Source of the DNA: Catajapyx aquilonaris
Taxonomy: Eukaryota
Assembly (NCBI GenBank): GCA_000934665.2
Contig: JYFJ02003745.1
Coordinates: 1-38,292 of the forward strand
Direction of reading: 5' to 3'
DNA: 38,292 nt
The notes under the pieces are model-generated. The model searched no databases. It worked only from the letters and a program-made list of their open reading frames with translations, and was not told the DNA's origin. Each line of letters begins with the position of its first letter. The stretch's first letter is position 1. A program made the position numbers and the translations under genes. Shown one piece after another: positions 2,470 through 34,186 of the stretch.

Positions 2470-2715
2470 CGAAGCAGGTTGGCATGGTGGATAAGGCGTC
2501 CGACTGCTAATCGGGAGGTCCTGGGTTCGAATCCCGGGGCCGACGATCCTGACCTGTGGTTTTCTGTGGTTTCCCACGTTCACCCCAGGAGAATTCCGGG
2601 ATTGCTTCCTAAAATAATAGGCCACAGCCGCTTCCTTCCTTCCCTATCCTTGGAGGTTGAAGAGGCAATACCGGGCCAACCTCTCTCATATCAATAAATT
2701 ATAAAGTTAAACAAA
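2470..2715 (+). mobile_element. tRNA-derived SINE, family A, near full-length
   Basis: Pol III A-box-like TGGCATGGTGG and B-box GGTTCGAATCC. Body ends GGCCACAGCCGCTTCCTTCC followed by an A-rich tail. Further copies at 5521-5740 and 12483-12596. Confidence 0.85.

Positions 2716-7011: not shown

Positions 7012-7078
<67 letters not shown>
7012..7078. repeat. (ATC)n microsatellite
   Basis: About 22 perfect units. Confidence 0.97.

Positions 7079-7307: not shown

Positions 7308-7372
<65 letters not shown>
7308..7372. repeat. (ATT)n microsatellite
   Basis: About 21 perfect units. Confidence 0.97.
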
Positions 7373-13779: not shown

Positions 13780-14260
13780 AGTGTCCCACCATTTTCATTG
13801 AAAACAAAAACAGTTACATACATGAACTTTACTGAAGTTTGAAGCTCCATCGATGTCACTTTGTGCGGTATAGAGATGGACCAAAATTACCGACAGGGAG
13901 AGGGGGAAAAGTAGAAACGGCACCCCCCTTCCCCGGCACTGCTTGAATGCAAACAATGGAAAATTTTCCTCCCACTGCTATAGTTAATGCTAACTAACCT
14001 AACTTAGCAATACCAGTGCCAAATATGGTACTGATAAGTTAGTACGTAGTGGGACGAAAATTCGACCCAAACTTACTATACATTATTTTGTCCAACCTCT
14101 TCTCGGCCGGGGAAGGGAGAGTGCATGATTTTCCCCCGCCCCCTGTAGGTAATTTTGGTCAATCTCTAGATACCACACACAGTGACATCGATAGAGATTC
14201 AAAGCCCTGTAAAGTTCACATCTGTAACTGCTTTCGTTTTCAAATGAAAAGGGGAGTGCA
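13780..14260. repeat. Diverged inverted-repeat element
   Basis: CATCGATGTCACT..GACCAAAATTACC..GGGGAAAA is mirrored by TTTTCCCCC..GGTAATTTTGGTC..AGTGACATCGAT. Confidence 0.65.
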
Positions 14261-15654
14261 GTCTACCCAGTGGTAACCTTGACACTTCAACTCTCGGGAC
14301 ACGTAACTTGTACAGTATTGGTACTTTCTAAGCATATCTGTGCAGACAACATTACTGTCTAACATCGGAATTGAACGAGTCGTTAGCTTGATATTTAGGC
14401 CACGCCCCCATTTTCCCGTAAATTTGCCGAGTAATGACATTTTGGCGGTTCCGTGCATACCCAAGTCCCAGGTCAAGGTTCTGAGCCAACTTATTCAACG
14501 GTATAGTAGCCTACGTATTTATTTTCGTTCGGGACTCTGGGGATTTTCCACTGCTAAGGGAGACACTCTTGTGTGTGATATGTTATCCGTACATTCGAAT
14601 TAAGCGATATTTCACTTGCTAGAAAACCTGAATATTAGGCTACTGGGGGTTGTAGAATGGCCCAGGACGGGCACCCAGGACAAGATTATTTCCTAGATAC
14701 ATCACATATAGGCTAAGGACGCCACTGTGTTTAGTTTATTTACTCCGGACACCGTAATGACGCCTCCTATCCAAAAGTGATGTAGTGCTGAATTTTTATG
14801 GCCTGGAATATGCCAAGGAATACCTGCGTGCGGGAGTTACTCACTACCCTGTGTACATATGACCTTGAAAGTTTGTAACATAATAATCCTTGCATTTACA
14901 GTTGACTACTTTACAACAGTGCGCAGAAAACCTAAGTGGCATGTTAAAACTGCCATAAAGCCAGAACATGATAATAATAATAATAATGATGACGATGATG
15001 ACAGCATTTCAATGTAAATAACATGCTAGTGTATAAAGTCTAGATTAGCTCCGAATATTGTTAAAAATGGTGGTAGTTAAGTTTTGAATTACGAGAGTTG
15101 AGCTGTTGAGCAGAGGGTGAAAAGGATGTGATACATTATACAAAATGTAGGTAGGCGGTTTAGGGTGAGTTCAGAGTAAGATATGCAGCGTCAAGGCCTT
15201 GTTAATGGTACTTACCCAGGTAAGGGGAAATGAGAGATTCTAGGCAGGATGAGAGGCTGCTGTTTTATCTTCTGTTGATGATTCAGAAGCAAGGAAAAGA
15301 ACTAAGAAATACCGTAGACCTATGTGAAGAGAATGGAGACTTCCAAGGTGATCAGACTCGTAGCCGCGACTGGACAGAATATACTTTCCGGCTTGTTCCA
15401 TAGCTCCATGCCCAATGCGATTGCCAAAAGAGAGGCAACGAGGCTGGCTGGCATAGCCTACATATCGATCCCGAAGTCGCAGCAGACACACACATACACC
15501 CATACCCACACTAACACATACACACACACACACACCTTTACCGGCTCGATTTTCTCTCCTTCGCGTCGCTCCCTTAGGAAGGGGGGAGGGGATCGCACAT
15601 TTATGGAAACACATTTAGGGGGTCGCAGTTGGTAAAAGGTTGGAAACCACTGGC

Positions 15655-16240
15655 CTAGAGAATAGACCGAAAATGGTCCCCTCCAGCATCCAAGCACTTT
15701 TGCATGCGAGTCTGCATATTGGCGTATACAGGGTGTTCCAGATTCGTGGGTCACTTTTTGATAACTGATATCGCCCGATGGCTATTATTTTTTGTAGCTT
15801 GTTGTGCCCCTCTCCATGAATGGGGCACATGGTTAGGGACATAACAAGCTACAAAAAATCATTGCTATCGGGCGATATTAGTGATCAAAAAGTGACCCAC
15901 GAATCTGGAACACCCTGTAGATGTGCTAATGTGACATCAGAATGTCAGCAAACTCCCTCGTTATAGGGGCTAGAGGGCGTCAATATATTGTTCTGGCGGG
16001 ACTTAATCTTGTATACGTGCGGCCCTTCAGTAAACCCCACAAGAATAAATCAGGTGGCGTCATGTCTGGTGATCTGAGCCAGGACCTTGGGTGACCGATT
16101 CATTTGTAAAAATCTGTGGCCTCCAAGATCACCAGACCTGCAGCCACCTTATTTCATCTTGTGGGGCCAATGTGACTGTAGACTCGCAAACAAAAGTGCT
16201 TGGATGCTGCAGGGGACCATTTTCGGTACATTCTCTAGCT
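15655..16240. mobile_element. Fold-back Tc1/mariner-derived element with two inverted copies of the SPDLxP motif region
   Basis: Outer arms CTAGAGAAT..CCGAAAATGGTCCCCT.CAGCATCCAAGCACTTTTG and their reverse complement near 16190-16239. WPPRSPDLQPPYFILWG on + (about 16117-16167) and SPDMTPPDLFLWG on - (about 16035-16075). Confidence 0.65.
15729..15917. mobile_element. Tc1/mariner MITE nested in the element at 15655-16240
   Basis: TA|CAGGGTGTTCCAGATTCGTGGGTCACTTTTTGAT ... ATCAAAAAGTGACCCACGAATCTGGAACACCCTG|TA; almost wholly palindromic. Confidence 0.88.
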
Positions 16241-16446
16241 AGCTAGACATTGTTTGGCAACATACAAGGCATGTTAATTTTCATCTGGAACTGTACAGTA
16301 CGAGTATAGTTAAAAGCCAAGCAGAAACTTCCTGAGCCAACCTCTCAGGAATATAGTGGCACGAAGGATGTCTTTGCTCAATGCATTCTGTTCAGATCGC
16401 TGTGGCAAAGGAAGTCCAGCATATTTCAAATCTGCAAGAGATTTGC

Positions 16447-16740
16447 CTATACCATGGTCATGACCTTATCTTCAAGGTAAATCAGGGCCTGGTTGTACAT
16501 GGCAAAGGTATAGTTGAGGTGAAGTGTAGGATTTTCAAGCCTGTGCCTGTGTAGAATATCTTCCGTCATGGAGTCCCGGAAATAATTCCAAAGGGTACAG
16601 GGTGTTGATGGTGAGCAGGAAGTGATGATGATGGCAAAAAGATTCCTGAGGGCAGAAGGAGATGTGGCAGCAGCTTCTTGCAAATTGACATCCCAAATGT
16701 GATCCCCTTCCAGTAGCCCCCTTCTTTGACAAATGACGGT
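16447..16740 (-). pseudogene. Helitron RepHel fragment (region between the Rep and helicase domains)
   Basis: CQRRGLLEGDHIW..LQEA..PSALRNLFAIIITSCSPSTPCTLWNYFRDSMTEDI matches the Helitron pattern GLLxDDxxW..EA..PxxLRxLFAxI..CxPSxP..LW..MxEDI. Confidence 0.85.
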
Positions 16741-17316
16741 CGATGTTCCCCGGTTCCCGGTGGGAGAGGTTGAAGGTGTAGGAAGCGGACCACAGATGGC
16801 AGGCAAATGACGGTTGGCGTTACAGGCGGACAGACAGACAGATCACAAACGGCTTTATTTATTTCATATAACTTGTCACATAATTTATTTATAATTTTGC
16901 GTAGCCTAGTTTTTTCGGTTTTCTCTCAACTTCACTTTTGTTAGATACGCCCTTTTTCGAGGGAGGGGTTCAATTGTTCTGATGGGCCATTCCTAATCGG
17001 AAATACATTGCTGCTCAGAGCTTGAATGAAGGAGTCAGTTTGATCTAATAAGCTTACTAGTAGCGTTGCCAGTGATACTTTTATTAGGATACCATTTAAA
17101 GTACCGTACGGTAAATGTACAAAAGTAACTGCTTAAAATAAGCAGCTTAGTGCTTACAAATATCCGTAGCAATGGGACAAGCACTTTGGAAGTTTGGATC
17201 ACCCTGCTGTGTATCCTGTTCCAAGACGGGCCTAAGCGTTTTAACTTTGCACTTTGTGAGAAGTCGAGTTCGGATTTTTAGGCAAATGCCTATTTACCGC
17301 ATTACCTCTCATCTTG

Positions 17317-17816
17317 CGGCACGCCGGTATAAAACGAGGTCGACCAGCATGCCGGTATAACCCGGGGGTGGCCGGCATGCTGCAATAACCGAGGTAGATT
17401 TTCGTAATTTTGATTCTTGCCAAATTTTTTGGAATGCATCTGGTACCATACTAAAATAATGTTACAATGAAAATGGGCGAGTGTACAAGCTGTGAGAATA
17501 TGCAACTTTTGTTGCACGGTGGATATAAAAAATGTAGATTGTGTGACCAATCCCATCGTCAGCCTGCTTTGACAGGGGAACTCCCTGCTTCAACGTACTG
17601 TTGAAATAGAGATTATTGCCAGAAAATGTGCCTTTTTGATACCCTTTACGTGAATTTTGCTTTTCCGGCAGGGAAACGTCAAGTTCGGAAAGGATAATGT
17701 AACTTATGTGAAAACCTCGCCTTATACCGGCATACCTCGCCTTATACCGGCATGCCAGTATAGCCACCAGATCAAGCATTTTAAAAAACTGGTCGACCTC
17801 GCCTACACCGGCATGC
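17317..17816. repeat. Inverted-repeat element with repeated TATACCGGCATG subterminal motifs
   Basis: GCCGGTATAA..CGAGGTCGACCAG on the left, mirrored by CTGGTCGACCTCG..TACACCGGCATGC on the right. Confidence 0.55.
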
Positions 17817-17946
17817 CGTGGTGTTGTTTATTTCGCGCTCATTAATTCAAACTGGGAAAAAAGAAATAGTTGAGCCCGTGGCCGTAAGGAGTGTACTGTA
17901 CATTACGGCGCATTACGGGCACGGCACGCGCTGCTATCGCCGATAT

Positions 17947-18043
<97 letters not shown>

Positions 18044-18140
18044 TGCCCGTGCCCGTAATGTACACTCCTTACGGACACGGGCTCAACTATTTCTTTTTTC
18101 CCAGTTTGAATTAATGAGCGCGAAATAAACAACACCATGG
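17817..18140. repeat. Palindromic MITE-like element with an (AAC)n(AAT)n microsatellite loop
   Basis: Near-perfect arms GGTGTTGTTTATTTCGCGCTCATTAATTCAAACTGGGAAAAAAGAAATAGTTGAGCCCGTG and reverse complement. Compound microsatellite at about 17948-18042. Confidence 0.9.
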
Positions 18141-18849
18141 CTGACGGTTTTTGAGATTGCTCAAAAACTAAGCGGATTAGCTGTATTATCTTTTTTGATT
18201 CTAATGGTATAGATGTGTGCCTTTCAGAACGCGCCATTACTCACCGGCCAGAAGTCACGGGAAGTTTAGTTACTGGGGGCCCAAAAATGCCACAAATGGC
18301 CTATTTTGACCACTTTGAGATCATATATCTCAAAATCTGGCCAAAATCTGGCCAAAATCTCAAAATTGAGGCCCGGCTGGTTCGCCAGCGACGGTACTCT
18401 CTTCCTCGAGCGGTCCTCGGACCTGACTCGCATTTCTTGGTTGGACGGGGTGCTTGGGAGAATATCCCACCCCCGTCCCTGGGTTGGACCCGGCATTGCA
18501 GTACAGCCGGGGCCAGCCCTCCTCTCCCCCACCCTTCTCCCCCACCCCTACCTTGCAATCCCACACCTTCCTCTCCTACCCCCGGCTGCCAAGGCTCGAC
18601 TCAGACAGAGCCATACAAGCTGGGTAACCCTTCCTACCAACCAACCAACCAATGGCGACTTTGGGCCCAAACAGGCCTCGGATTCGGATTCAGCGTACCC
18701 AAATTAGTAAAGAACAACAATGAAAACCCACTTAACCAAGGGGTGTATATACAATCTGTTAATCAGTGTAATGGGTAGTGCTGACCTTCTCGGTATTGCA
18801 CGGACCTTTATTTATTTTGGAATTTTTTACATACACAATTATGTTTTTC

Positions 18850-19101
18850 GTCGCAAGTGTCGCAACGCCCTGGTCCACGGGCGTGTGGGGAAGGGGAGGT
18901 TCCCAAGGGAGGGCGCTCTTGCAGACCCTCAAAGCACCAGGCCTTTTCTCTTGGCCCTGGGCAGAGTAGGGAGTGCGAGTCTGCCCGGACATGTCGGGTG
19001 AAAAGCGGAAAAAGTCCGGCCAAGCAGAGGTGACGGGGACGGGATTTGAACCCCGGACCTCCCGCTTGGCTGGCCAGTAGCATAGCCACTAGACCACCCC
19101 C
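18850..19101 (-). mobile_element. tRNA-derived SINE, family D
   Basis: Minus-strand head GGGGTGGTCTAGTGG (A-box) ... GGTTCAAATCC (B-box) followed by a GC-rich body. 3' boundary approximate. Confidence 0.65.
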
Positions 19102-19159
19102 GTTGGTGGACTTGATTATGATGTGATGTTGAGGGTTTTAGCGCACACCTGTAACAGTA

Positions 19160-20090
19160 GGTGAGTACAGTACATCAAATGAACGAGAAATACGAGGAGA
19201 ATGCGCCTGTGGAATTAGTTTTCCTCTAAAATGTAACCAGAAAAATGTGCGCGGCATTCCATTGGTCACATGCTCAGTCGCATGTCCAAATATTTTGACC
19301 CAACAATTAGTGATGTATTTGCGTAAGAGCAGCCATATTTGGTGACAGGAGTTGTGTCCCACACAAGGTTTGATATGTTCAGTGTTAAGTCTGGTTCATG
19401 CATGGCTCGCAAGAAAGTATTCGCAGATTTACCCACTAATTTTCGGGGGGCCAAATTAGTGGACGGAATGCCACGCACATTATTCTGGTTACATTTTTAA
19501 GGAAAACTAATTCCATAGGCGTGTTGTGGTAGCGTAAGTAACAAGCACTTGGGATGTAATAATCACTTGAGATGTATTAATCACAACTAGACACACTTTG
19601 ATCTTGGCGGAGCGGAGGGATGAGAGGGTGTGTGTGTGCAGGATCAGGAGGAGGTTTATTGTCTCTACTGGATCTACAACAAGGCGCATTCTCCTCATCT
19701 CTCGCTTTCATTTGATATAATTAAATATATTGTGTTTATTGGACTTTGACCACTTCCACGAGCCTAAAAAATTCTCCAAACGTTCGCGATTTTCTCCACC
19801 TCACTGTATTGCAAAATATCGTTGAAACTAGATATTAAGCGTTCTGAAATAGGCTGGCATAGGTGTGTACATCTGTGATTTTTTCACAAAAATCCGGGAT
19901 GGTCTAGCAGAATTTCGGCCCGTTTGATTCGGAATGACTCCAGTATTTCGAGAGCTTTGGTTTTTTGAATGCCCCTAGGTCAAAAACAAAGGTTAGACAA
20001 AATGAAATGTCATTATACATTGTATGAGTTACGAGTGACCTAAGGAACAATGACGTGGACAAAATAATATCATGTTGCATAGTGTTATGG
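19160..20090. mobile_element. Second copy of the fold-back family at 1234-2130
   Basis: Internal inverted arms AATTAGTTTTCCT..AAATGTAACCAGAA..GGCATTCC and GGAATGCC..TTCTGGTTACATTT..AGGAAAACTAATT. Shared 3' motifs. Confidence 0.6.
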
Positions 20091-21292
20091 GCGATAAACA
20101 CTGTGATGAGACTGATGACTCCATGGATCAAGGCAGTGGCATGATCTTGCTCTGCTGAGTGTACAAAGATAAGAAACCGCATCATAGACCAGATTGCATC
20201 AGTGAAAGAAGGCGCGGTTGTCATTTTTATGAGTGGTGTCATTTGTCAATTAAAAGATTAATGAATTTTGACTGGTATATTTGAGCCGATTTAATGATAA
20301 ATTTATCTGAAAGATCCAAGATGGGTTTCAGATATGTGTGGACAGAGGCACAATTTCAGTGCTTGCCATATGCGCTATTTCCCGAAGATACGCCTCTGCC
20401 AGACACGCAAATATAACATTGTAATATCGCAGAAACTCGTTCGCATTTCTGGTTTACTGACTTGTGGCTTTGGCACTTCTCAGGTCAGGCGAGAGCGGAC
20501 AGTGATCACAAAAAATTTTGAAGAACCGCAGCGGTATTACGAAAAATGAACATAATGTAAATGAAGCAAAGTGAACCGAAAAGAGTCCAATTTCTTTGAA
20601 ATCAATTTACGAATTATCTTAGTAAAGAGGCGTGGTCAGATAATAAGCGACACCTTCACACAAAATGATACCAAGATTCCCAGGACTGAGGACTTGACCC
20701 TATAGGTTTACCAAGATCTTATTAAACAACCTGTATACATCCTGGAGGTAAGGTAAAATATGATTTGATTCGCCCTGAGACGAAGAAACTTGCCCACGCA
20801 ATTCTTTTGTTATTTCAGAAAGAAGAGACGCACTTGCTCTGGATGTGTCTTGATTAGTTTGGACAGGCAAGAAAATCCCAGACTTTCCTGGGAGTTCTAA
20901 CGAGGCTTCCAATGTCCGGAAGGGATTTGCATAAGCCCATGAATGGCATCTGCAAGAAAAGGGGCCAGCTAGCATGTCGTTTCAATCATACCGAACTGAC
21001 CCTTTTTATATTCCATCTGGCTACAAATTCCCTGTGGCCAATCGTACAGCTTCACCTTGGCAGTTCCCAGATCGAATTATGTAGTGTATATAAGGAAGTC
21101 GTGGACCAAGAAGCTGTCTTTCTGGAGAGCAGATACCGACCGAGGTGGACAAGGCTATATATACGTTACCAGTTAGTATGAACAGCTTTCTCAGGTAAGG
21201 CTTGACGATACCAACTGCAGTTGTACACCTAAGCATTAGAGTAAGAAAAGTAGCGCAATTCAGAATAGGGACTGATTCAGTCAACAACTACA

Positions 21293-21352
21293 TACCCTGT
21301 AGCTCAATTGGCAGAGCACACTGCTGGTCCAGGTTCGAATCCTGGCAGGGTA
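21293..21352 (+). ncRNA. tRNA-like element lacking the anticodon arm (tRNA pseudogene or small Pol III RNA)
   Basis: Acceptor stem TACCCTG/CAGGGTA, D arm GCTC-AATTGGCA-GAGC, T arm CCAGG-TTCGAAT-CCTGG. Only 11 nt (ACACTGCTGGT) between the D and T arms. Confidence 0.65.
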
Positions 21353-21603
21353 TACAAAGGCCTATTACGGGTGCCGAGACTGGCTAATAATAAACTGTTG
21401 TAGCTGCTACTGCAGTACTTCCATTCTGCCGTCCTACCAAAAATGTCATACCAGAACATCACAATAAGGTCGTGTTATCCTCCGAGGTGCCCGGCCCAAA
21501 CGACCTTACCGTAGATTGTGCATATGTGACTTTTTCGCTAGGACGGACGTGTTTAACTATTGCTTCTTGGATTGGGACTGCGTACTCCTTTGTCTGTTCC
21601 AGG

Positions 21604-21678
21604 ATGGCCGCCTGTTACCTGCTTATCTTTTGGATTATTTGTGGACATGGATGGGCCTTTCCTAAGGCACCTGAAGAG
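21604..21678 (+). CDS. Coding exon 1 (signal peptide) of a candidate secreted prepropeptide
   Basis: Acceptor tcctttgtctgttccag|G then ATG. Encodes MAACYLLIFWIICGHGWA-FPKAPEE (hydrophobic core, G-x-A cleavage site). Phase-0 donor GAG|gtcagt. Confidence 0.65.
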
Positions 21679-22283
21679 GTCAGTTGTTAAACATTATTTT
21701 CATCTGCCTTATACAACCTCAAGTGCATTATTTGGCCCAAAACAAGTAGTGTAATGTAGACTACGAGTGTTTCATCTTTTTGAATCAAGTGTGCTGCTTG
21801 TTCTATCTTGCATTATCATATTACAAGATACAGTAAGCCGCCGTATATGGACTGCCACGTGCGTCTAGGGGCACCCAAATGTTGTCGTATATTTGTCAAT
21901 TCGGCACTTCTAACCCTTACATTTTACATTTGTATTGGGTCACGTAATCCGAGAGGGAATAGTGACGAACTTAGATGTTAGAAATACTGTACCTTATTCT
22001 GTATGGTGTGTTAAGTAACTCAATCATTGATCAGTTTACTTGTAACTACGATATAGGGTTTCCGAAGGTTTGGCGCCTTTTCCATGTTAATCAATTATTA
22101 TCTAAATGTCTTTCGAGGAATAACTTAAATATATTATGTAATAACTTTAGATATTGTGCATATGAGTTCATGGGGAAAATATGTATAGGTAAACATCAAT
22201 ATCATGACCTTTCCTTCACCTAACATACTGCCAACATGGAAGAGACTCACATTTAGTTTGTCATTACTGGGTGGCTGGTGTAG

Positions 22284-22700
22284 ATGGAAATGGGATTAAC
22301 GGAGTCTGCGGTTGAGCTTCTTGAGCGTCCATGGGCATTCTTGCATGGTAGACGGCCTGCTTCTGCATCTGACTTCCTGATGACAGACAATGCCAGCAAC
22401 GATGGCTCTTTCCAGATGGAAAAGAGAGGATTTTATGACAAGCGTAATTTGATGGAAACCGCACCAGAATTGCTGGCCCCAATGGAAGCAGTGGTAGCAG
22501 CAGCAGCAGCGGCGGCGGCGGCGGCGTCAGTGGCGGAAGAAGAAGACCAGCAGCAGGAGGAGGAAGGGAAGAGAGAGCAACAGCATCAGCATCAACGCCT
22601 AGGCAAGAAAGAGGAGGCCTTCAAGAGGAATAACTATTGGCGCCACATCAGCACCAATCCTCTATTCAGCGAAATTTCTTTGCCCCTCAGGTCCCCCTAA
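22284..22700 (+). CDS. Coding exon 2 of a candidate neuropeptide/peptide-hormone precursor
   Basis: Preceded by gtgtag| in phase 0, matching the exon 1 donor. 138 codons with GRR, KR, KR, GKR, GKK and KR sites and an acidic/poly-Ala spacer. Confidence 0.6.
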   Translation: MEMGLTESAVELLERPWAFLHGRRPASASDFLMTDNASNDGSFQMEKRGFYDKRNLMETAPELLAPMEAVVAAAAAAAAAASVAEEEDQQQEEEGKREQQHQHQRLGKKEEAFKRNNYWRHISTNPLFSEISLPLRSP

Positions 22701-24028
22701 AATTCTTGTCAATTTGATTCCTTTTTCAACTTAAGTATAATGTGGGTGGTCAGCTATTCATCATTTTCTCCCTGTACCCTTAGCACTCATGATTGTGTCT
22801 ATATCTGTATTCCTTGGCAAGAATAAATTCTCCGTGTTTAATATTTCTGCACTCGAAAGTCTTGATATCCTCATCAAAACATATCTGGTGGAGGGGGGGG
22901 GGGTGTGACGGGGGGAGTCTCTCTTACCTATTATTTGACTAATATTTTCAAGTAACATACGGGTAGTTTCTGTATGGTTTTAAAAATTACAAAATAATAT
23001 GGCGACATCAAGTGAAGAAGTAGCGCCGAAAACTGTGTCGATAGCAGCATATGTATAGCATCTCGTGAAACAACTCTTGCAAAAACTGCTACTTACTGTA
23101 CTAGTGCTACTAGTACAGTACCATTACTATTACTATAACTTTACTGTTACTTTGCTCTTGCCATCGATCTGTCGATTAGGCTAGGTGGGCTCCCCCAATG
23201 AGTGTCAGTATTTTCCAAAGATTAACTTCAAGAGCCTTGTTTTCGCTTTTATTTCAATTTAATTTTGATTTTGGGAAAAAAAACTTGCTCTACCCTTTCA
23301 TGCCTCTGGTACACAAGATTTCTTGATCCAGATTAGCCGCTCCAGGGTCCCGCAACGGGCATAATCATGTTCCGGAACAGTGTTTGAGATGAAGTATCGA
23401 CAGCCTTTCCCATTAACAGTGTGGTGACATCAGGATTCTCACCCGGATTCCCAGCCAGTCCGAATAGACCACAAGGCACAAGTTAATAATCCCCAACCAG
23501 GATATACCCTTCAACACTTTCAGGCCACAACAGGATCTTCCCTTATCCTGGGGCAGGCGCGTGACCCCCCCTCCCCACTCCCTCGCTTTGTTGTCTTCAG
23601 TTATCGTTAATTTTGTTCATAAGCTTAGGTATCATGTTATGCAGCGTCTCGTCACTCCCAGTGACATGAGTACATAAGTACATTGCTCCCCCCCCCCCCC
23701 CCCCCCCCCCCCGGTGAGCTTAGCTCTGCTCCCTCTCTGAGGCGGTTTGCCACGGCGGCGCTAGTATCAGTACCGAACGGGCAGCGCCTTACCTAGCGGG
23801 AAATTGTGAACCATTTCAGTCGACTCCGATATAGCGTCTGGGGACAGCGGAACCTCACAGCTATCCGGCCAATCAGAGACGGGCACTCCCCAGCGCCACA
23901 GGAGAAGTGGTGGCATACTTTCGTACTTCTTACAGTACCGAGATACAGTATCTGGAAACGAACTCAAGGATGGACATGTCGTAGCCCCATAGCGAACTTG
24001 AGCACTTCATAAAATGTCTACTGAAATT

Positions 24029-24315
24029 GAAGCCCTTTCGGCAAATAGGGCACATGTCAGGAGAAAATCGAGAAAAACGCACAGCTTGGTAAATGACCAG
24101 TGCCCTTTATGCCGATAATATGCAATTCGGCTCACGTGACATGTGCCCTTGTTGCAAAACAGCCTAATCTTCAAACCTCATTTTCAGCTGTGACAAATCT
24201 TCCTTTTGATGCACACTTTTCTCAGGACCTCAGAAACAATCCCCTCTGTCATTTAGTGATGATAACTCGAATGTTCCAAAAGAGTGACATGTGCCCTTTT
24301 TGCCAAAAGGGCTTC
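24029..24315. mobile_element. Sola1-like MITE
   Basis: TIR GAAGCCCTTTCGGCAAATAGGGCACATGTCA and TGACATGTGCCCTTTTTGCCAAAAGGGCTTC. AATT on both sides (24025-24028, 24316-24319), consistent with an AWWT TSD. Confidence 0.65.
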
Positions 24316-27300
24316 AATTGGACACATGCTGTAGTGCAATCCAGTTCCAGATTAAGCCGCGCCCCCTGGCACGATTTTTCATACGAGGGCAATAGGGGAC
24401 GCCACCTCCACTAGATAATACCTCCATGGTGAATAACATGGTCATTGTCAATGGCCCATATTCTAATACTGCCACAAAGCAACATATCCGCTACATAGAT
24501 ATTTCACACAAATATTTCACAAAAACAGGATTGGCGACGAATGAATCACTCCGTATATGCTATATCTGTAGTGTGACTGGTGATCGCCTGTAAATTCATT
24601 ATTAGGTAATTAATAATATCCAAAACATCGTAAATATGTAGAGCATCGATATATTTTTTATTTGAAAAGGTAGGGAAAAAATTTGGCACTGAGACAGTAA
24701 TAAACGGTTAAGTGTCAATATACTTATTCTACACAAGAGAATAAGGGCGCGTGCACGCGGCAGGCGACTATCACCTGCATGGTTTCCAGTATCCTGAGTG
24801 TCATAAACGGTCTTCGCCAGCTCTAAATCATAATTTTAAGAGTGTGCGCACTGCAGAATAGACAGAGGAATTCATTTTTTGAATGTGGGCGACTAATATT
24901 ATAATATATTATTGTCCATGAAAATCTGATTGCACACCCGCAGGATGCACACGCCCAAATATTGCGGAGATAGACAACACCAAACTAACTGCATAAACTT
25001 CTCCCTTTGAAATCTCATAAGGAGACAAGTCATGTCTACAGCAAATATATTGTCGGTCTGTAATGTTGTCTGTCGCCTTACATATACATCATCACTTCTA
25101 TCATGCGGAAAGATTTCAGCTACCCACATGACAAAAGAAATTTGTTAATGCAAATTGATGCGTTTCTGATATCTGCAGCCAAAATCCAGTTTTATATAGG
25201 CTACCGGTACACATTCCCATGTGGGGCAGGTGAAGTATTACCAGCAACCGCTGATATTTTTCTCCAATTTAATGGAAGTTTTTATGTTTCCATGTTAGGT
25301 ACTAAGCTTATCAAAACTGATATAATATGCCAAATATTTTAGGATTAACTGATGTATTCTAGCGCTATCCAACCATCATGATACTAGCTCAGTGAAGGCA
25401 TCCTTTTAAGCTATCTTTGACAGTTGTATAGAGCCAAGACATTATTTTGTGTCCGAAACTTTTTTGGATGTATATTTTGCTTATTACATTACACTCTTTC
25501 ACGATATCTCTTCGACCCCAGGTGGAAGCGAAGACATGTCTTTAACTACTTACTACCAATATTAAATTTTCATTGTTGCAACTAAAATATTTGCAGTTTT
25601 CATAAATACTACATTCAGTAATATTCATAACTAGTACAAAAATAGTCGCAATTTTAATAAATCTGAAATCATGCTAATTTCTTTTTTTATTTGCACTAAA
25701 TTAAATCTGCATGCTTGTAGGCTGTAGGCTTACAAGAAAACAATTTTGATCCGGAACTGATACCCAAAATCTCTTACTCCTAGCCTTGCCGGCTGCGTTC
25801 TGTATAGGCTACGGTGCCGTAGCCTGCATGGATGTTGGGATACGTGCTGCAACACATTTAAAATATTTCATGTCACAATTTGCAGAACTGTCACTCTGTC
25901 AGAGTCACTATAGATTTCAAGAAATTGTGGCAATTTTATATCTAAAAAGTTCATTATCCCTTACCATAGTCATTTTGCCAACACCTTTCTAGGATATTGT
26001 AACTGCCTCAGTCGAAGAATTGCTTGACAATCACCTCGTCCTGACTCGTCAAGAGCTGAATATTATTATTATTATTATCATCATCAATCTACCAAATATT
26101 TCATATAGGGTCTGTCGATGAGCTAGAAGTTAGCATTCCTACTACTACGCGCCGCTCCCATCGGACCCATCCAGTTGCAAGCAGGAAGTTGATGAGATTT
26201 TTGAGTGATGGATACTGCAATGTCCATTGCTGTTTTTCAGTCAAATCCGACACTATGATGAAGTAACTTTTCCAGAAATAATGGGGACATCTCAGCTACA
26301 CATAAATGTGCCAAGTCAAGTTTTTCGACTTACTGTAATTAACGCGAATTAACGAGATTTTTGAGTGCCACTAAACTCGAGAGGGAAGTGACTCCCATCC
26401 ACACATTATTGTTCGAGTCACACTCATCGTCTGTCAGACTCATCGGTATACAGTGCTTACAGCGTTACTTCTCAAAAAGGGGATTAGCCCTCCACTCCCC
26501 ACCAGACCCTGTGGGTCGCGACTGGTACCCTGAATGATCAAAGGATCCTACCAGGTAAGGTCTATAGAAGATAATAGGACATCTGTTTTGTTTTAGGCAC
26601 TAATTCTTTGGTGTTCATGCACAATAGCATGAATTAGGCAAGTGAAATGTTGAATTACAAGAGGAATAATAATCAACTTAGATGTAGGGGCGACATATCA
26701 CAAATGCAATATATTTGTTCATTTCAAATGTGCACAGCTAGGGGGAGGTTGGAACCTCCAGAATTTTTTATTTAGATTCCATTGCAACGATAGATTGTGA
26801 CCTATTTTTAGGGTCAACTGTTGTAAACTAAAATATGACATTCAACTCGTTTTATATTGACTGCTTTATACTATACTACCGTATATGCAATGTGTGATAT
26901 ACCATGAAATGGGGTGTGGCAATGTGCAATAAGGCCAATAACTGTATAGCCTACTCATTTTTATCATTAAATGAGAGGCTTAATTATTATTATAACAAGT
27001 GCCCATCCCAACAGATGGCATTAGGTGGCACGGGCTCCAACCAAGCAAGCTTATCAAATATCAGTTTTGGGCTTGGTTGAACCCTTCTTAGACCGTGGTT
27101 GAACTGCTGCCTGGAAACACATTTCAACTGGGAAAGTGAAAGAAAAATGAAAAATCAAATAATTATTGTCAATGATAACAATTATTAAAACCTTCCCTTT
27201 CCTGATATTTTTCCCGGATGAGAAATGTTTCCTAGGAGCGGTGCAACATGGTGAGCAATATGTGACTCTAAAAATGAATGGCCAAGTTTTGTACAGTGGT

Positions 27301-27785
27301 AAATAAAAAGACAAATCGTCCATACTGAAAAATAAAGGTGTTTTTTTGACTAGGCTGATTTTGTAGGACGAATTCATAGTCCGAAAGGATCATTTTCTGT
27401 AGAGTGCCTTTCGTTAGATCCAGCGAGATAATAATTATTACCGTTTACCTTTACGCGAGCCTGCTTTCAACATTCTGATTTATGTCCTGTTATTGCATCA
27501 TGAGGCTGATCATATAGCTGATTTTGCGTGGGAACGCAAAATCAGCTATATCCGACAGTAAAAAAAGAGTTTAAAGTGACATTGGATTCTCCATGTTGTC
27601 TTCTACCTAGTACCCGTCAAATATGGTGTAGCACAGCCACATGGAAATGGGTGAAAAATGGCTCCTAAGCAAAAGCAGCTAGATCCAAGTTTGTGTGCAT
27701 ATCAAGCCAGCTCCAATGCGATAATTTTTCCATACGGTTAAATGTGTTAAATTTAGTTTTTTAAAAATCCATATGAAACATATAC

Positions 27786-29787
27786 GGGCAATTCCATGTG
27801 AACGTGATCACCTTTTGCACGAGAAAATTTGTCCGTCGACGAGTGTGGGATATGTTTATGTCCAGGTCACGTTAGGACCTTTCCCACAAGGATTTGGTCC
27901 GCTGATGCGTGGTTGCCTGTCTATAGGCGCTAAATGCACTGGGATCACAGTTAGAGGCGCCCCCTATTACATTTACCTGACAACGTAAATCCATGATGTA
28001 ATACTTGTTTCATGTGTGAAATTGTCTCCTCTTTCCGACAAAAATAGTCACTTTCCTATAGCTGTGCAAATTAATGTCACAAAGCGAGATCTTTGCAAAC
28101 AAATGACATTTTCAAAAAAGAGCCAAAGTCAAATGTCATTACATTGATATCAAAACACACTTCACAGTGTCCTCTATCAGTGGTACAAACGGAATTTTGG
28201 AATACGAAATGGTTACGGAGCTATAGGTACTGACGTGGAGCGCTGCGCTCGTGGCCAAGCCCCCAGAATGAACAGGAGCGGTCCACCTAGGTCCGTCTTC
28301 ATGTCTCAGGAAGTGCACGCTTCTCCTTTGTGTTCAATTCACTTAATAATATAGGGGCCGTCCATAATCCGCGCGGACAGATTTTTTCACTTTTTTACCT
28401 CCCCCCCTCCCCTTTGCGGACAGAAGCGGACAATTTCTTACCTCCCCCCCTAAAAATTGCGCGGACATGGCCTCCTTGACCCCCCCCCTGCCCCCGCTTC
28501 GCCACACTGAAAGTGTTATTTTCGATATATTGGTATTTTTTATTTTTTGATATCTACACACAAATTCCTTTTTTCAGAGCCATTACGGTATATTTGAGAG
28601 GTCTGACTAAAAAAACGGCCGTGTCCTTAATATTCATTTGACGTTTATTGTCCGCGNCCCCCCCTTCACTTGTCCGCGCGGATTATGGACGGCCCCATAT
28701 GGTAGTTATATAGTTTTAGTATATCTAGAAATATAGTTCCAAATAAATTTGGTCAGCTACTGGGCAATTCCACGAGAACGTGATCACCTTTTGCACGAAA
28801 AAATTTGACCGGTCAAATTTTTTCGTGCAAAAGGTGATCACTTATCGACGCGTCGATAAGTGTGAGATATGTTTAGGTCCAGGTTAGAACCTTTCCCATA
28901 AGGATTTGGTCCGCTGATGCGTGGTTGCTTCTCTACAGGCACAAATTGTACTTTGATCACAGTTAGATGTATTACATTTACACGATGTAAATGCATGATG
29001 TGATACAAGTTTCATGTGTGAAATCGTCTCCTCTTTTCGACAAAAATGCTAACTTCCTGACAGATGTGCAAATTCTTGGCAAAAAATGAGAATTTTGCAA
29101 ACAAATGAAATTTTCGAAACGAGAGCCAAGTCAAATGTCTTCACATTGATATCAAAAAATTCCGCATAGTGTCCTCTATCAGCCATACAAACAGAATTTG
29201 AGCATACGAAAGGGTTACGGAGCTATAATCACTGACGTGGAGGGGTGCAGGAGTGCAATATATTCCATTATAGTGAAAGCAAGGGGCCCGTATGGATCCG
29301 CAAGGAATTCCGTACAGGCCTCAACAGTGAACATTCATTTGGACTGTGACTAGGAACGAATAGAGGAATGAACACACAAATAAAAAGTAGACTTCATGTT
29401 TCTTTATTCTATCTAATCAAGCATATTTTAATATTTAACACTTGACACTTGTGAAAATTTAAGTTATTCTTACTATTCTATGGTAATTTTTTTGGAACTA
29501 TATTTTCTTAAAGTGAATTAAACAGAAAGGACAAGCGTACACTACCTGAGACATGAAGACGGACCTAGGTGAGCCTCTCCTTTTCATTCTGCGGGCGTGG
29601 GCACTCGCGCAGCGCTCCACGTGATCCAAGTGCAATATTAGCGCCTGTAGATAGGCAACCACGCGGCATCAGCGGACCAAATCCTTATGGGAAAGGTCCT
29701 AACGTGACCTGGACCTAAACATATCTCACACTCATCGACGGGCAAATTTTTTCGTGCAAAAGTGATCATGTTCACGTGGAATTGCCC
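27786..29787. mobile_element. Sola2-like non-autonomous composite element with an internal second left arm at 28762
   Basis: Long TIR beginning GGGCAATTCCA.GTGAAC.TGATCAC at 27786 and ending 29787. 4-bp TSD ATAC at 27782-27785 and 29788-29791. About 27786-28240 is repeated at about 28762-29240. Confidence 0.7.
28354..28696. mobile_element. PIF/Harbinger-like MITE nested in the Sola-like element
   Basis: 26-bp TIR GGGGCCGTCCATAATCCGCGCGGACA. 3-bp TSD ATA at 28351-28353 and 28697-28699. Confidence 0.75.
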
Positions 29788-29790
29788 ATA

Positions 29791-31031
29791 CGAGGGGAGT
29801 TCATAAAGTTCGCGCCTTTGGGTTGAAGGAAATGAGAGAAACAGTTCAAATTGCACACATGTATTAGTCCTTCTCTCTATATTAATCCAGCAAAGCCACA
29901 CATTTTTCCCAGCGATACACGACTTGTGGGACACAATTATTGCCCAAGTCGACACTTTCCGCTTGAAAATTGTTTTCAACCTTCGTGATCACACCCTCGT
30001 CGCTTTCAAAATGCTTCCCACACAGTGCTTCCTTCATGTGGCGAAAGAGGAAGAAGTCTCCAGGGGCGAGGTCTCGGGAATACAGCGAATGGGGCAGAAT
30101 ATTAATAATTGGGTGATAGGCGTACCCCTAAGGGTTTACTGCCAGACATTTATTGAGAGATGTTACAAGATGGGATCCTATTATTGACGCGCCCGGGCCC
30201 ACGGGCAGGATGACAGGAGGGGATGTGCAAGTGCAGTGCCTTGTCTGAAATGTGGTCGTTTTGTGAGCTCCCCCGGGTGGATTAGTCTAAGGAAATTCCA
30301 CCCGAGACGAAGTCAGAGACGACTCATGAACTCTGCACGAGATGAAGGGGGTGTCCCCGGGCTGGAATCGAACCCGGGACCTTAACATCCGTGGGCGCAT
30401 ACGTTACCGCAGCACAACTCCGCCTCCCGATGGGGCAGAATACTGTACCCCAACTGGCCAGCAAGTGCCACAGTTGCATGGGCATAATGAGCAGGTGCGT
30501 TGTCGTGCACACCTTGCGTCACCATTCCTCGTCTCTTCCGCTTGATCTGGTGATGCAGGTTTTACAGGAGGTGTTGATAAATTAATACTGCCCTGTGATG
30601 GTCTGACCTTTTAGTGCCTAATGAGTCGTGATAAAATCCGCGGGAATAAAAAAAAACCACTGAGCATAACCATCCCAGATGATGGCTGCATTCTGGCCTT
30701 CTTCGGCCGTGGAGAGTTTTGAATGTTTCCACAGCTTGTTCTGTAATTTGGTCTCTAGGTCGTAGTGGTACACCCAACATTCGTCCATGATGACGAGTCT
30801 GTTGTAAAAATCGCCATCTTCGGAGAGGAACATCGCCAACTTTTGAAAACTTTTTTCGAGGGCAAAGTGTTTACTTCGGCAATAATGGTGTCCCACAAAT
30901 CGTGCATCGCTGGGGAAAATGTGTGGCTTTGCAGAATTAATATAGAGAGAAGGACTAATACATGTGCGCAGTTTGAACCGTTTCTCTCATTTCCTTCAAC
31001 CCAAAGGCGCGAACTTTATGAACGCTCCTCG
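29791..31031 (-). mobile_element. Decayed mariner element with a disrupted DDD transposase
   Basis: TA|CGAGGGGAGTTCATAAAG ... CTTTATGAACGCTCCTCG|TA. Minus-strand motifs IMDECWVYHYDLETK, HDNAPAH and YSRDLAPGDFFLF. Confidence 0.9.
30102..30429 (-). mobile_element. Full-length SINE family C inserted in the mariner transposase
   Basis: 13-bp TSD ATGGGGCAGAATA at 30089-30101 and 30430-30442. B-box GGTTCGATTCC. Homologous to 6709-6945. Confidence 0.88.
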
Positions 31032-32698: not shown

Positions 32699-34117
32699 TT
32701 ATAGTGAAAAGTAGCTGAGAAGTTGTGAGGGCTTTACGCTGCTAATAGCTGCATTTTGCAAGAAGGGAGACCCATAGGCGAGCTTGAGAGGAATGTTGAC
32801 TCCTCCTCCTCCTTGCTCCACCGTGTTGTGGCCAAACTCATATTCTGAAGAAGTTACAGAAGTTGCTGGAGATGCTGAGAAGAAGCCTTGCTGCATTCCA
32901 GAAGGGATACCGTACTCATCTCTGGCCAGTAGTTGCACATGCTGCACCTGTTCTGGAGAAGGTGTAGCATCCACCGGTGCAGGGTCTGACGCAAACTGTG
33001 CCATGTTCGGGGATAACGTAACGGCATTTTGCTCCTGACCTGGCTGGTATGAATGTGGAGTGCTGTTCTCTGGCATCTGTGCTGGTGGGAGATAGGTAGG
33101 CCTGTGTCCTGCTGATTGACTTTTCCCGGGTGACGTGGCCTCCTCTTTGGCTAGTTGCAATGCAGCGGCGAAAGCATGGACACCGTGGTCTGTCGGCTGC
33201 TGATATTGCGGTACACCGTAACTGTACCCCCTCTGCTGAGACTGATGTTGAAAAGTCTGGATGACTTCAGGAGCGGAATATGACTGGCTAGTTTGGGAAG
33301 GAGCATTGTAAGAGGAGCTAACCTGGTGGGATTGGCTTGCTTGGGGTGCACTGTATGACTGGCTAGCCTGAGGTTCAGGAGAGTAAATGGGCTGGTGCCT
33401 TGACTCAGGTACTGAGTAAGATTGACTAACTTCAGGTGTAGAGTAGGATTGGCTCACTTCAGGTGCACTGGATGGATGTGATGTCATTTGAGGTTGTTGG
33501 CTGCTAGGATAATATTGCTGGACAGAAATTCCATGTTGAGGCTGTTCATGGTGCCCGTTGTAATTATGCTGCCCATTGCTCTGGTGTCCCTCTCGTTGAC
33601 GAGGAATCTGGTAAGCACTAGCAGGCAGACTGTAACCTATACTGCTTTGCTGCTGGTACCGATTAACTTCCACAACATCCTGTTGTCTCTGTTGACTGCT
33701 TCCCTGTGAATATAGAGTCCGAGTAGGAGCAGTGTACGACTGGCTAGCCTCAGGATTGGCTTGCGATGAACTCGGTTGTCCATATTCAGTGCTAATTTGT
33801 TGAGATTGCACCAAAGAAATGGGGTAAGGAGACGAAATCTTGGATGAGGCCGGAGATATTTCATTCAGGCGAATGTCTTTAGAAGAGCTGGCCATGTCAA
33901 AAATGTTTCCAAAACTGCTCTCATGTTCTGCAATGATGCTTTGCACCCGGCGTAAGAGCTCAACATCGACGATATCGCCAAGACCGGGACTGTCTTCCTC
34001 GATGATCAGGGTCGAAGCTGGCCTATTGATGACAGATTGACTCCTTATTGGCCCGTATCCGGGTGATGGAGGCTCTGCAAAGGCTGTTGCCGTCAGGACA
34101 GCAAGGACCAAGGTAAT
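32699..34117 (-). CDS. Terminal coding exon of a secreted low-complexity (cuticle/extracellular-matrix-like) protein
   Basis: Open frame of about 470 codons. Phase-0 acceptor tttcag| at 34118, then ITLVLAVLTATAFA-EPPSPGYGP: the end of a signal peptide followed by an EPP..YGP start typical of insect cuticle-associated proteins. SQSYxxP repeats. The TTG start in the ORF track is probably not the true start. Confidence 0.88.
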   Translation of the reverse strand: MTLVLAVLTATAFAEPPSPGYGPIRSQSVINRPASTLIIEEDSPGLGDIVDVELLRRVQSIIAEHESSFGNIFDMASSSKDIRLNEISPASSKISSPYPISLVQSQQISTEYGQPSSSQANPEASQSYTAPTRTLYSQGSSQQRQQDVVEVNRYQQQSSIGYSLPASAYQIPRQREGHQSNGQHNYNGHHEQPQHGISVQQYYPSSQQPQMTSHPSSAPEVSQSYSTPEVSQSYSVPESRHQPIYSPEPQASQSYSAPQASQSHQVSSSYNAPSQTSQSYSAPEVIQTFQHQSQQRGYSYGVPQYQQPTDHGVHAFAAALQLAKEEATSPGKSQSAGHRPTYLPPAQMPENSTPHSYQPGQEQNAVTLSPNMAQFASDPAPVDATPSPEQVQHVQLLARDEYGIPSGMQQGFFSASPATSVTSSEYEFGHNTVEQGGGGVNIPLKLAYGSPFLQNAAISSVKPSQLLSYFSL

Positions 34118-34186
34118 CTGAAACTGGAGGCCAATCTGACAGTGTATTTTTTTTAAATTATATATACTGTAAATGTATAGTATATA

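What the first reader, a model, noticed from the sequence alone, without database searches (positions are those of the whole stretch)
21604..22700. Hidden two-exon gene encoding a candidate neuropeptide/peptide-hormone precursor
Seen: a 76-nt exon with a strong acceptor and a GAG|gtcagt donor encodes a signal-peptide-like MAACYLLIFWIICGHGWA/FPKAPEE. A 605-nt GT..AG intron joins it in phase 0 to the 138-codon ORF at 22284, which is preceded by an in-frame TAG that doubles as the acceptor. The 163-aa product has GRR, KR, KR, GKR, GKK and KR sites. Established: prohormone convertases cut at KR/RR and a preceding Gly gives C-terminal amidation. This would predict ...ELLERPWAFLH-amide, GFYD, EQQHQHQRL-amide and a C-terminal NNYWRHISTNPLFSEISLPLRSP. 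Inference: the LLERPW segment after the signal peptide and the terminal xxPLR recall HanSolin-type precursors (GQPLRW-amide) as I remember them, but the WG amidation end is absent here. It could be a divergent family member or an undescribed peptide gene. The exon 2 pyrimidine tract is weak.
Basis: partly seen in the sequence, partly recalled or inferred. Interest (0 to 1): 0.82.

Follow-up and report, generated by a model that had tools for sequence, protein, structure and literature searches.

The report
Unannotated spliced gene for secreted propeptide

Summary
A 472-letter contig from a second study (run X5) ends its fit to exon 2 at 22282. Its remaining 132 letters lie as about 77 and 55 letters in the two bins that hold the 76-nt exon and a further upstream exon. 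I infer that both junctions are used, although the joint rows were not printed.

The gene therefore has three exons. An untranslated leader behind a TATATAA box carries an earlier in-frame ATG at 21178, which adds six residues and gives 169 aa.

The product has a signal-peptide-like start, six dibasic sites (1.89 expected) and three Gly-dibasic amidation sites (0 of 20000 shuffles reach three).

No homologue was found by Pfam, a word search, phmmer over 1.84 billion proteins or a metagenome scan.

The HanSolin idea fails, because the defining GQPLRW-amide end is absent. KR-GFYD-KR fits the achatin tetrapeptide pattern, but as a single copy and with an unlisted third residue.

Verdict: a real, expressed, orphan propeptide-type gene. 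A neuropeptide role is plausible but unproven, and achatin membership is tentative.

The parts
21087..21093 (+). TATATAA, a candidate TATA box about 30-50 nt upstream of the first transcript letters seen
   Evidence: Read. An in-frame TAA at 21091-21093 closes the frame upstream of ATG 21178. The promoter role is inferred only.
21137..21194 (+). Exon 0. This is the part seen in the X5 contig; the true start may lie further upstream. It holds the 5' leader and the first in-frame ATG at 21178, coding M-N-S-F-L plus two bases of an Arg codon. It ends CAG|GTAAG.
   Evidence: Sequence. About 55 letters of X5 record 12 fall in bin 20942-21475 (0.53 x 534 / 5.13). Frame checked. The start 21137 is computed, not printed by the tool.
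21195..21602 (+). Intron 1, 408 nt, GTAAG...CCAG. It contains a tRNA-like element at 21293-21353.
   Evidence: CAG is shared by 21192-21194 and 21600-21602, which explains why the exon 1 piece measures 77 rather than 74-76 letters.
21603..21678 (+). Exon 1, 76 nt. It holds the hydrophobic core and the predicted cleavage site of the signal peptide (...GHGWA|FPKAPEE).
   Evidence: About 77 letters of X5 record 12 fall in bin 21476-22009 (0.74 x 534 / 5.13). Hydropathy.
21679..22283 (+). Intron 2, 605 nt, GTCAGT...TAG, with a weak pyrimidine tract
   Evidence: X5 record 12 stops fitting at 22282, that is, at the acceptor plus the two letters AG shared with the end of exon 1 (table 8).
22284..22700 (+). 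Exon 2 coding part, 138 codons plus stop. It holds the propeptide with sites GRR, KR, KR, GKR, GKK and KR.
   Evidence: X5 record 12 lies on 22282-22483 with 0 other letters. Its other 138 letters fit the masked Ala/Glu/Gln repeat 22484-22621.
22428..22439 (+). GGA TTT TAT GAC, coding GFYD between KR and KR. This is the candidate achatin-like tetrapeptide.
   Evidence: Pattern taken.
22302..22355 (+). End of the first predicted peptide, ...ELLERPWAFLH, followed by G-R-R. The predicted product has a C-terminal His-amide.
   Evidence: Processing is inferred from the general rules of prohormone convertases and amidation.
22569..22604 (+). EQQHQHQRL followed by G-K-K. The predicted product is amidated and may carry N-terminal pyroglutamate.
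   Evidence: Inferred; KK sites are used less reliably than KR (recalled).
22629..22697 (+). C-terminal 23-residue peptide NNYW...SLPLRSP, behind KR
   Evidence: It shares only P-L-R with the HanSolin consensus.
22822..22827 (+). AATAAA, a candidate polyadenylation signal 122 nt behind the stop codon
   Evidence: Read. No transcript end was seen.

Best explanation
This is a real, single-copy, expressed gene of an animal, possibly an arthropod. It has at least three small exons: about 21137-21194, 21603-21678, and 22284 to about 22850.

The mRNA is translated from ATG 21178 into a 169-aa preproprotein. The steps below are inferred, not shown:

1. A signal peptide directs the protein into the secretory pathway. 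It has an n-region with Arg, a 13-residue hydrophobic core, and small residues at -3 and -1. It is cut after ...GHGWA.
2. Subtilisin-like prohormone convertases cut the disordered, cysteine-free propeptide at its six dibasic sites.
3. A carboxypeptidase trims the basic residues, and Gly-extended ends are amidated.
4. The predicted products are a 28-residue peptide ending WAFLH-amide, the tetrapeptide GFYD, EQQHQHQRL-amide, EEAF, a 23-residue C-terminal peptide, and acidic spacers.

GFYD is the only product that fits a known family pattern, that of achatin: G-aromatic-x-D between dibasic sites. If it belongs there, Phe2 would be converted to the D-form and the peptide would act on an achatin-type GPCR.
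For: Shown:
- The sequence anatomy is as described, and the frame stays open across both junctions for 169 codons.
- The DNA run X1 has a collinear contig over 20236-23523 at depth 28.1, the level of unique sequence, so the locus is single copy. It has no repeat or paralogue in the window.
- X5 record 12 (472 letters, depth 5.13, another study than the likely source) fits 22282-22483 with record letters 139-340 and 0 differences. 132 further record letters lie beyond 22282 but not on the adjacent DNA (table 8).

Inferred: - The X5 bin sums give 55.2 letters in 20942-21475, 77.0 in 21476-22009 and 201.9 in 22010-22543. With the 138 masked letters, 55+77+202+138 = 472.
- The figures 77 and 55 are what exon 1 and exon 0 predict once the shared CAG and AG at the junctions are assigned.
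- X5 does not behave like plain genomic DNA. Its depth relative to X1 is 0.18 on this contig, but 0.0096, 0.0046, 0.0015 and 0.000025 on four high-copy repeat bins.

Propeptide build:
- There are 6 dibasic pairs against 1.89 in shuffles (P=0.0043).
- There are 3 Gly-dibasic sites; 0 of 20000 shuffles reach three. It is the only one of 135 window ORFs with three.
- Hydropathy peaks at 2.4-2.8 over residues 7-12.

Weak lead:
- The named language-model neighbours at 0.78-0.79 are galanin, spexin, diuretic hormone, PYY, neuromedin-U and PBAN precursors.

Achatin pattern, from paper passages:
- Achatins are tetrapeptides with an aromatic D-residue at position 2. Known forms are GF[G/A/W]D, GFGN and GFGE (tick), and the family occurs in a spider and in priapulids.
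Against: - The two joints were not in the printed part of table 5 (58 rows were not shown), so splicing rests on piece ends and arithmetic from one contig of one run. That run's kind is not on record.
- A single 132-letter piece at 21421-21552 would give the same bin sums, though it has no splice donor.
- No signal-peptide program was available.
- No relative was found anywhere, so conservation of the frame or of any peptide is untested.
- Dibasic clustering as strong as this occurs in 3 other ORFs of the 135.
- The three top language-model neighbours (0.83-0.85) are unrelated, and all scores are under the tool's 0.9 line.
- For achatin: there is only one copy, whereas the family is described as multi-copy. 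Tyr at position 3 is not among the listed variants. A four-residue match is weak and was noticed after the fact.
- RR followed by Pro, and KK, are poorer convertase sites (recalled).
Confidence: 0.6

Rival explanations
1. The gene is real and its product is secreted, but it is not a neuropeptide. It would be a precursor of gland, gut, immune, venom or seminal peptides, or a small secreted acidic protein, cut by furin-type enzymes in a non-neuronal tissue.
For: The same anatomy (signal peptide, acidic spacers, dibasic sites) is common to such precursors (established knowledge, recalled). The tissue of run X5 is unknown. No orthologue was found, as is usual for fast-evolving secreted proteins. 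The neighbouring gene candidate at 32702-34186 is also a secreted-looking low-complexity protein.
Against: Three of the six glycines of the mature part sit directly before a dibasic pair. That points to amidation, which is typical of regulated-pathway peptides. The KR-GFYD-KR unit fits a neuropeptide pattern. The named language-model neighbours are neuropeptide precursors, though this is weak.
Confidence: 0.2
2. The transcript is real but non-coding, or it codes only by accident. The 169-codon frame, the hydrophobic start and the basic pairs would be chance products of a GC- and GCN/GAR-rich exon.
For: The window holds 48 frames of 100 aa or more with no Pfam match in any. The opposite strand of exon 2 carries a 118-aa frame. 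Three other ORFs show equal dibasic clustering. No homologue exists in the searched libraries.
Against: The frame stays open and in phase across two junctions. The first ATG of the transcript part seen opens it, with no ATG in the 41 leader letters before it. The Gly-dibasic count is unique among 135 ORFs, and 0 of 20000 shuffles reach it.
Confidence: 0.1
3. The protein is a divergent member of the HanSolin family.
For: The last peptide of the precursor contains P-L-R and lies at the C-terminal end, where HanSolin lies in its precursors.
Against: The family's conserved end, GQPLRW-NH2 (GMPLRF, GLPLRW), with its amidation Gly and RR, is absent. The protein stops at ...PLRSP. Its length of 169 aa lies outside the 88-139 aa range. 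No sequence match to anything was found.
Confidence: 0.03
4. There is no gene. The X5 contig would be an assembly chimera or would come from a retrocopy or deletion allele in DNA.
For: There is one contig from one run of unrecorded kind, and the joints were not printed.
Against: The piece ends fall on a GT..AG intron border to the letter. The piece sizes fit two predicted exons. X1 depth over the exons (24.9-32.3) equals the flanks (about 28), so no extra exon-only DNA copy is visible. The X5 to X1 depth ratio varies by about 400-fold between repeats, unlike a DNA library.
Confidence: 0.04

Closest known systems
Achatin / achatin-like neuropeptide precursors (GFAD, GFGD, GFFD, GFWD, GFGN; GFGE in a tick)
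   Same: A tetrapeptide starts with Gly, has an aromatic residue at position 2 and ends in Asp. It is bounded by KR on both sides and lies in a secreted, cysteine-free precursor with acidic spacers (pattern).
   Different: There is one copy only, whereas the family is described as a multi-copy peptide. Tyr at position 3 is not among the variants I saw listed. The precursor also carries two candidate amidated peptides. There is no detectable precursor similarity, and the receptor and the D-residue are untested.
HanSolin precursors of insects
   Same: It is a small single-peptide-type precursor. The last peptide lies at the C-terminal end and contains P-L-R.
   Different: It lacks the conserved ...PLRW/F-NH2 end, the amidation Gly and the RR behind it. 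The protein is also longer than the 88-139 aa range.
Generic invertebrate multi-peptide prohormones, such as the lineage-restricted 'neuropeptide-like precursors'
   Same: It has a signal peptide, KR/RR/KK sites, Gly-dibasic amidation sites, acidic and poly-Ala spacers, small exons, and the signal peptide on its own exon.
   Different: No family can be named, and no orthologue was seen in 1.84 billion representative proteins.

Membership tests
HanSolin | C-terminal hexapeptide of the type GQPLRW-NH2 (GMPLRF, GLPLRW), with an amidation Gly and a following RR (or KR/R) | tested here: not met
   The protein ends ...SLPLRSP-stop, with no W/F, no Gly and no basic pair. Definition from passages of PMC7179676.
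HanSolin | The peptide lies at the C-terminal end of a precursor of 88-139 aa | tested here: inconclusive
   The position is met, because the P-L-R peptide is the last one. The length is not met: 169 aa, or 163 from the second ATG.
HanSolin | Sequence similarity of the precursor to known HanSolin precursors | not tested
   No HanSolin sequence was at hand from a tool. phmmer over 1.84 billion representatives gave only 2 hits, both tandem-repeat artefacts.
Achatin | Tetrapeptide G-aromatic-x-D/N/E released by flanking dibasic sites | tested here: met
   KR-GFYD-KR at 22422-22445. Pattern. Tyr at position 3 is not among the listed G/A/W forms.
Achatin | Several copies of the tetrapeptide in one precursor | tested here: not met
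   There is one copy in 169 aa and no further copy or paralogue in the window. This is a usual trait rather than a strict criterion.
Achatin | D-amino acid at position 2 of the mature peptide | not testable with these tools
   This needs peptide chemistry. The requirement is stated.
Achatin | An achatin-type GPCR in the same genome that responds to the peptide | not testable with these tools
   No genome is held for this window.
Secreted prohormone / neuropeptide precursor (generic) | N-terminal signal peptide | tested here: inconclusive
   By inspection and hydropathy only. The n-region has Arg, the core of 13 hydrophobic residues has 9-residue means up to 2.8, and Gly and Ala sit at -3 and -1. 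No SignalP run was possible.
Secreted prohormone / neuropeptide precursor (generic) | Excess of dibasic sites and of Gly before them | tested here: met
   There are 6 dibasic pairs against 1.89 expected (P=0.0043). There are 3 Gly-dibasic sites, reached by 0 of 20000 shuffles and unique among 135 ORFs.
Secreted prohormone / neuropeptide precursor (generic) | Expression in neurons or endocrine cells, and detection of the mature peptides | not testable with these tools
   The only transcript-like evidence is one contig of run X5, whose tissue and kind are unrecorded.
Secreted prohormone / neuropeptide precursor (generic) | Conservation of the peptide and its cleavage sites in related species | tested here: inconclusive
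   No relative was found. However, the libraries did not even return this protein itself, so the species and its kin seem to be absent from them.

The most novel reading that the evidence does not exclude
The gene would be a single-copy achatin-type neuropeptide gene, producing G-(D)Phe-Tyr-Asp, in an arthropod lineage where this D-amino-acid signalling system has not been described. It would co-encode two new amidated peptides (ending WAFLH-amide and QRL-amide) on the same precursor. That would extend the family to a new sequence variant and a new precursor layout. The arthropod origin rests only on language-model neighbours of the neighbouring ORF. My belief that achatin is unreported in insects is recalled, not checked.
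Probability: 0.2. Interest if true: 0.6.

Novelty: new member of a known kind. Interest (0 to 1): 0.5.

Why it matters
Short peptide-hormone genes are routinely missed by gene finders because their exons are tiny and only a few residues are conserved. Here a gene of this kind appears to be absent from the very large protein libraries searched, yet it is transcribed.

If the peptides are real, they add an orphan signalling precursor to this animal. GFYD would be a directly testable new ligand for the achatin receptor family, one of the few systems known to need a D-amino acid.

If the product is instead a gland or immune peptide, the gene is still a new secreted peptide precursor. It would matter less for neuropeptide evolution.

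Tried and rejected
- **Pfam.** On the exon 2 product there were only low-complexity matches below the cut-offs. On 130 other window ORFs there were none at E<=0.001. Of the six other ORFs, four had no match and two had weak sub-cut-off matches (E 0.03-0.07).
- **Word-index protein search with P0002.** 121 candidates were scored, and none reached E<=1.
- **phmmer of P0002 against 1,835,955,588 representatives.** There were 2 hits (E 3.5e-07 and 1.7e-06). Both are long tandem-repeat proteins matched in 8-9 stretches and were rejected as artefacts after reading them.
- **Metagenome scan.** 490 pattern matches were found, and none was confirmed.
- **Whole-genome search.** No genome is held for this window.
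- **Earlier findings of the scan.** Nothing was returned.
- **Sequencing runs.** No RNA holder is listed. I make nothing of the parts of the laid stretch without X5 cover.
- **Species identification through the 495-codon neighbour ORF.** No hit among 8000 candidates. The Atlas neighbours are all arthropod but score under 0.9, so this is a lead only.
- **Literature.**
  - 'GFYD' anywhere in the text: 71 papers, and none of the 20 listed concerned neuropeptides.
  - Six short strings of the protein: 0 papers.
  - Supplements of PMC6188537 and PMC7828734 gave no achatin precursor sequences.
  - One paper asked for by DOI is not held.
  - Searches were poorly aimed and gave nothing useful.
  - bioRxiv supplements, and supplements of the neuropeptidome papers that I did not open, may hold this sequence.
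- **Other families considered from memory and dropped for lack of any match.** Myomodulin (LRL-amide), EFLamide/TRH-type (FL-x-amide), myosuppressin, pyrokinin.
- **Joined protein.** I did not send the spliced protein to any outside tool. All searches therefore used exon 2 alone (138 of 169 residues).

Full report
**1. The observation**

Reading the window and translating it confirms every coordinate of the finding.
- ATG lies at 21604.
- A 25-codon stretch runs to 21678 and codes a hydrophobic start followed by FPKAPEE.
- GT lies at 21679 behind GAG.
- TAG at 22281-22283 lies directly before ATG 22284.
- A 138-codon frame runs to the stop at 22698-22700 and carries GRR, KR, KR, GKR, GKK and KR.
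- The intron is 605 nt and joins the exons in phase 0.
- The window is eukaryotic in style, with 38-52% G+C.

Pfam finds nothing in this window. None of 130 other ORFs matches at E<=0.001. Six more ORFs had no match or only weak matches below the cut-offs. The window also holds many microsatellites.

**2. Is it more than chance?**

Length alone is not, because the window has 48 stop-to-stop frames of 100 aa or more. The internal pattern is more telling.
- In the predicted mature part (145 aa), 12 of 17 Lys/Arg sit in pairs.
- There are 6 dibasic pairs against a mean of 1.89 in 20000 shuffles (P=0.0043).
- Three of the six glycines directly precede a pair, and 0 of 20000 shuffles reach that.
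- Against the window's own 135 ORFs of 70 aa or more, dibasic clustering ranks third, so it is not unique.
- It is, however, the only ORF of the 135 with three Gly-dibasic sites.

**3. Transcript evidence**

The look-up of sequencing runs listed four DNA-type runs of the probable source sample (X1-X4). It also listed one run of another study, X5, of unrecorded kind, which holds 22% of the sampled words. I laid X5 and X1 on 14000-30000.

X1 has a collinear contig over 20236-23523 at depth 28.1, which is the level of unique DNA. The only break is at the masked Ala/Glu/Gln repeat 22484-22605. The locus is therefore single copy and not a repeat. A self-search of the window agrees.

X5 record 12 is a 472-letter contig of depth 5.13.
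- Its letters 139-340 fit 22282-22483 without a difference.
- 138 letters continue into the masked repeat.
- 132 letters continue upstream of 22282 but do not fit the adjacent DNA.
- The end at 22282 is the acceptor plus the two letters AG that the intron end shares with the end of exon 1 (21677-21678).

The X5 bin sums show where the 132 letters lie.
- 0.74 x 534 / 5.13 gives 77.0 letters in bin 21476-22009.
- 0.53 x 534 / 5.13 gives 55.2 letters in bin 20942-21475.
- The third bin gives 201.9 letters, which is the printed piece.
- The total is 55+77+202+138 = 472.

Caveats on this evidence:
- The joint rows themselves were among the 58 rows of table 5 that were not printed, so this is an inference from one contig.
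- One 132-letter piece at 21421-21552 would give the same sums, but it has no donor site there and would match the predicted exon size only by accident.
- That X5 is RNA-like follows from its depth relative to X1. The ratio is 0.18 on this contig, against 0.0096, 0.0046, 0.0015 and 0.000025 on four high-copy repeat bins. A genomic library would give one ratio.

**4. A third exon**

The 55 letters pointed me upstream. The sequence shows TATATAA at 21087-21093. It also shows an exon ending CAG|GTAAG at 21194/21195.
- The CAG is repeated at the acceptor (21600-21602). This explains why the exon 1 piece measures 77 letters (21600-21676) and the upstream piece 55 (21137-21191).
- This exon carries an ATG at 21178 in frame with 21604. 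It adds M-N-S-F-L and an Arg codon split AG|G across the junction.
- The product therefore has 169 aa.
- There is no other ATG in the 41 leader letters seen, and an in-frame TAA lies at 21091-21093.
- AATAAA lies at 22822-22827, 122 nt behind the stop.

**5. The product**

The start has the three parts of a signal peptide.
- A short n-region with Arg.
- A 13-residue hydrophobic core, with 9-residue hydropathy means up to 2.8.
- A c-region, GHGWA, with small residues at -3 and -1.

No signal-peptide program was available, so this rests on inspection. The rest of the protein has no cysteine and looks disordered, with a poly-Ala tract and acidic Glu/Gln spacers.

Applying the established rules of prohormone processing gives these predicted products:
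- a 28-residue peptide ending WAFLH-amide
- a spacer
- GFYD
- a long acidic spacer
- EQQHQHQRL-amide
- EEAF
- a 23-residue C-terminal peptide

The rules are convertase cuts at KR/RR/KK, carboxypeptidase trimming, and amidation of Gly-extended ends. All of these steps are inferred. RR before Pro, and KK, are weaker sites (recalled).

**6. Relatives**

None was found.
- Pfam gave only low-complexity noise.
- The word-index search scored 121 candidates, none at E<=1.
- phmmer over 1.84 billion representatives gave two hits. Both are tandem-repeat proteins matched in 8-9 stretches, that is, artefacts.
- A metagenome scan confirmed none of 490 pattern matches.
- The libraries did not return the protein itself, so the species appears not to be in them. 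The blank therefore says little about conservation.
- The language-model search placed six neuropeptide precursor families (galanin, spexin, diuretic hormone, PYY, neuromedin-U, PBAN) among its named neighbours at 0.78-0.79. The three best hits (0.83-0.85) are unrelated and all lie under the tool's 0.9 line, so this is a lead only.
- Neighbours of the 495-codon ORF at 32702-34186 are all arthropod low-complexity proteins at 0.76-0.88. This is a weak hint at the phylum.

**7. Comparison with known families**

HanSolin: according to passages of PMC7179676, HanSolin precursors have 88-139 aa. They carry the peptide at the C-terminal end, and the peptide ends in GQPLRW-NH2 (or GMPLRF, GLPLRW) before RR. 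Here only P-L-R and the C-terminal position agree. The aromatic residue, the amidation Gly and the basic pair are all absent. The defining feature was tested and is not met.

Achatin:
- The passages I read describe a tetrapeptide with an aromatic D-residue at position 2.
- It is usually present in several copies and has the forms GF[G/A/W]D or GFGN.
- Other reported forms are GFGE in a tick and GFGD in abalone.
- Reference precursors exist in a spider and a priapulid.
- The receptor is activated only by the D-form.

KR-GFYD-KR (22422-22445) fits the core pattern. Against membership, it is a single copy, it has an unlisted Tyr at position 3, and it was noticed after the fact. The receptor, the D-residue and orthology could not be tested. 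I therefore say that it may work like an achatin, but I do not file it as a member.

**8. Verdict**

I rate this at about 0.85-0.9.
- That it encodes a secreted propeptide processed at dibasic sites is likely.
- That it is a neuropeptide or peptide-hormone precursor rather than another secreted peptide precursor is plausible, and I rate the combined statement at 0.6.
- I give achatin-type identity about 0.2-0.25.

In print, I found no trace of the sequence in main texts ('GFYD'). Supplements were searched for only two papers, and for achatin terms rather than for this sequence.

Noticed in passing
window 21293-21353 (+), inside intron 1: A tRNA-like element scores 46.8 bits against Rfam tRNA (gathering score 29), but ARAGORN does not call it. 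It is probably a tRNA-derived SINE head or a tRNA pseudogene.
   Followed up: partly
window 2474-2545 (+): tRNA-Ser (anticodon GCT) is called by ARAGORN and by Rfam at 34.7 bits.
   Followed up: no
window 32702-34186 (-): A 495-codon open frame begins with the end of a signal-peptide-like stretch (...LVLAVLTATAFA). It continues as a Gln/Ser/Pro/Tyr-rich protein with 27-nt tandem repeats at 33405-33465. It has no Pfam match above cut-off (one weak sub-cut-off match, E 0.074) and no homologue among 8000 candidates. Its language-model neighbours are all arthropod low-complexity or cuticle-type proteins. It is probably a second unannotated secreted-protein gene whose first exon lies upstream.
   Followed up: partly
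window 15602-19339 and 27884-30000: These are high-copy repeats. X1 word depth is 3000-27000 against about 28 for unique DNA. There are many variant joints, and some copies are present in X5 at very different relative levels.
   Followed up: no
window 22264-22620 (-): A 118-aa frame lies antisense to exon 2. It is a by-product of the GCN/GAR-rich repeat at 22484-22605, which read laying masked as a repeat.
   Followed up: no
window 24744-24902: A whole 159-letter X5 contig (depth 2.3, no differences) lies 2 kb downstream of the gene. It could be an unrelated transcript fragment or a further exon of something; this is not resolved.
   Followed up: no
window 7012-7078, 7308-7372, 17947-18042: Perfect trinucleotide microsatellites are present: (ATC)22, (ATT)21, and (AAC)12 followed by (AAT)20.
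   Followed up: no
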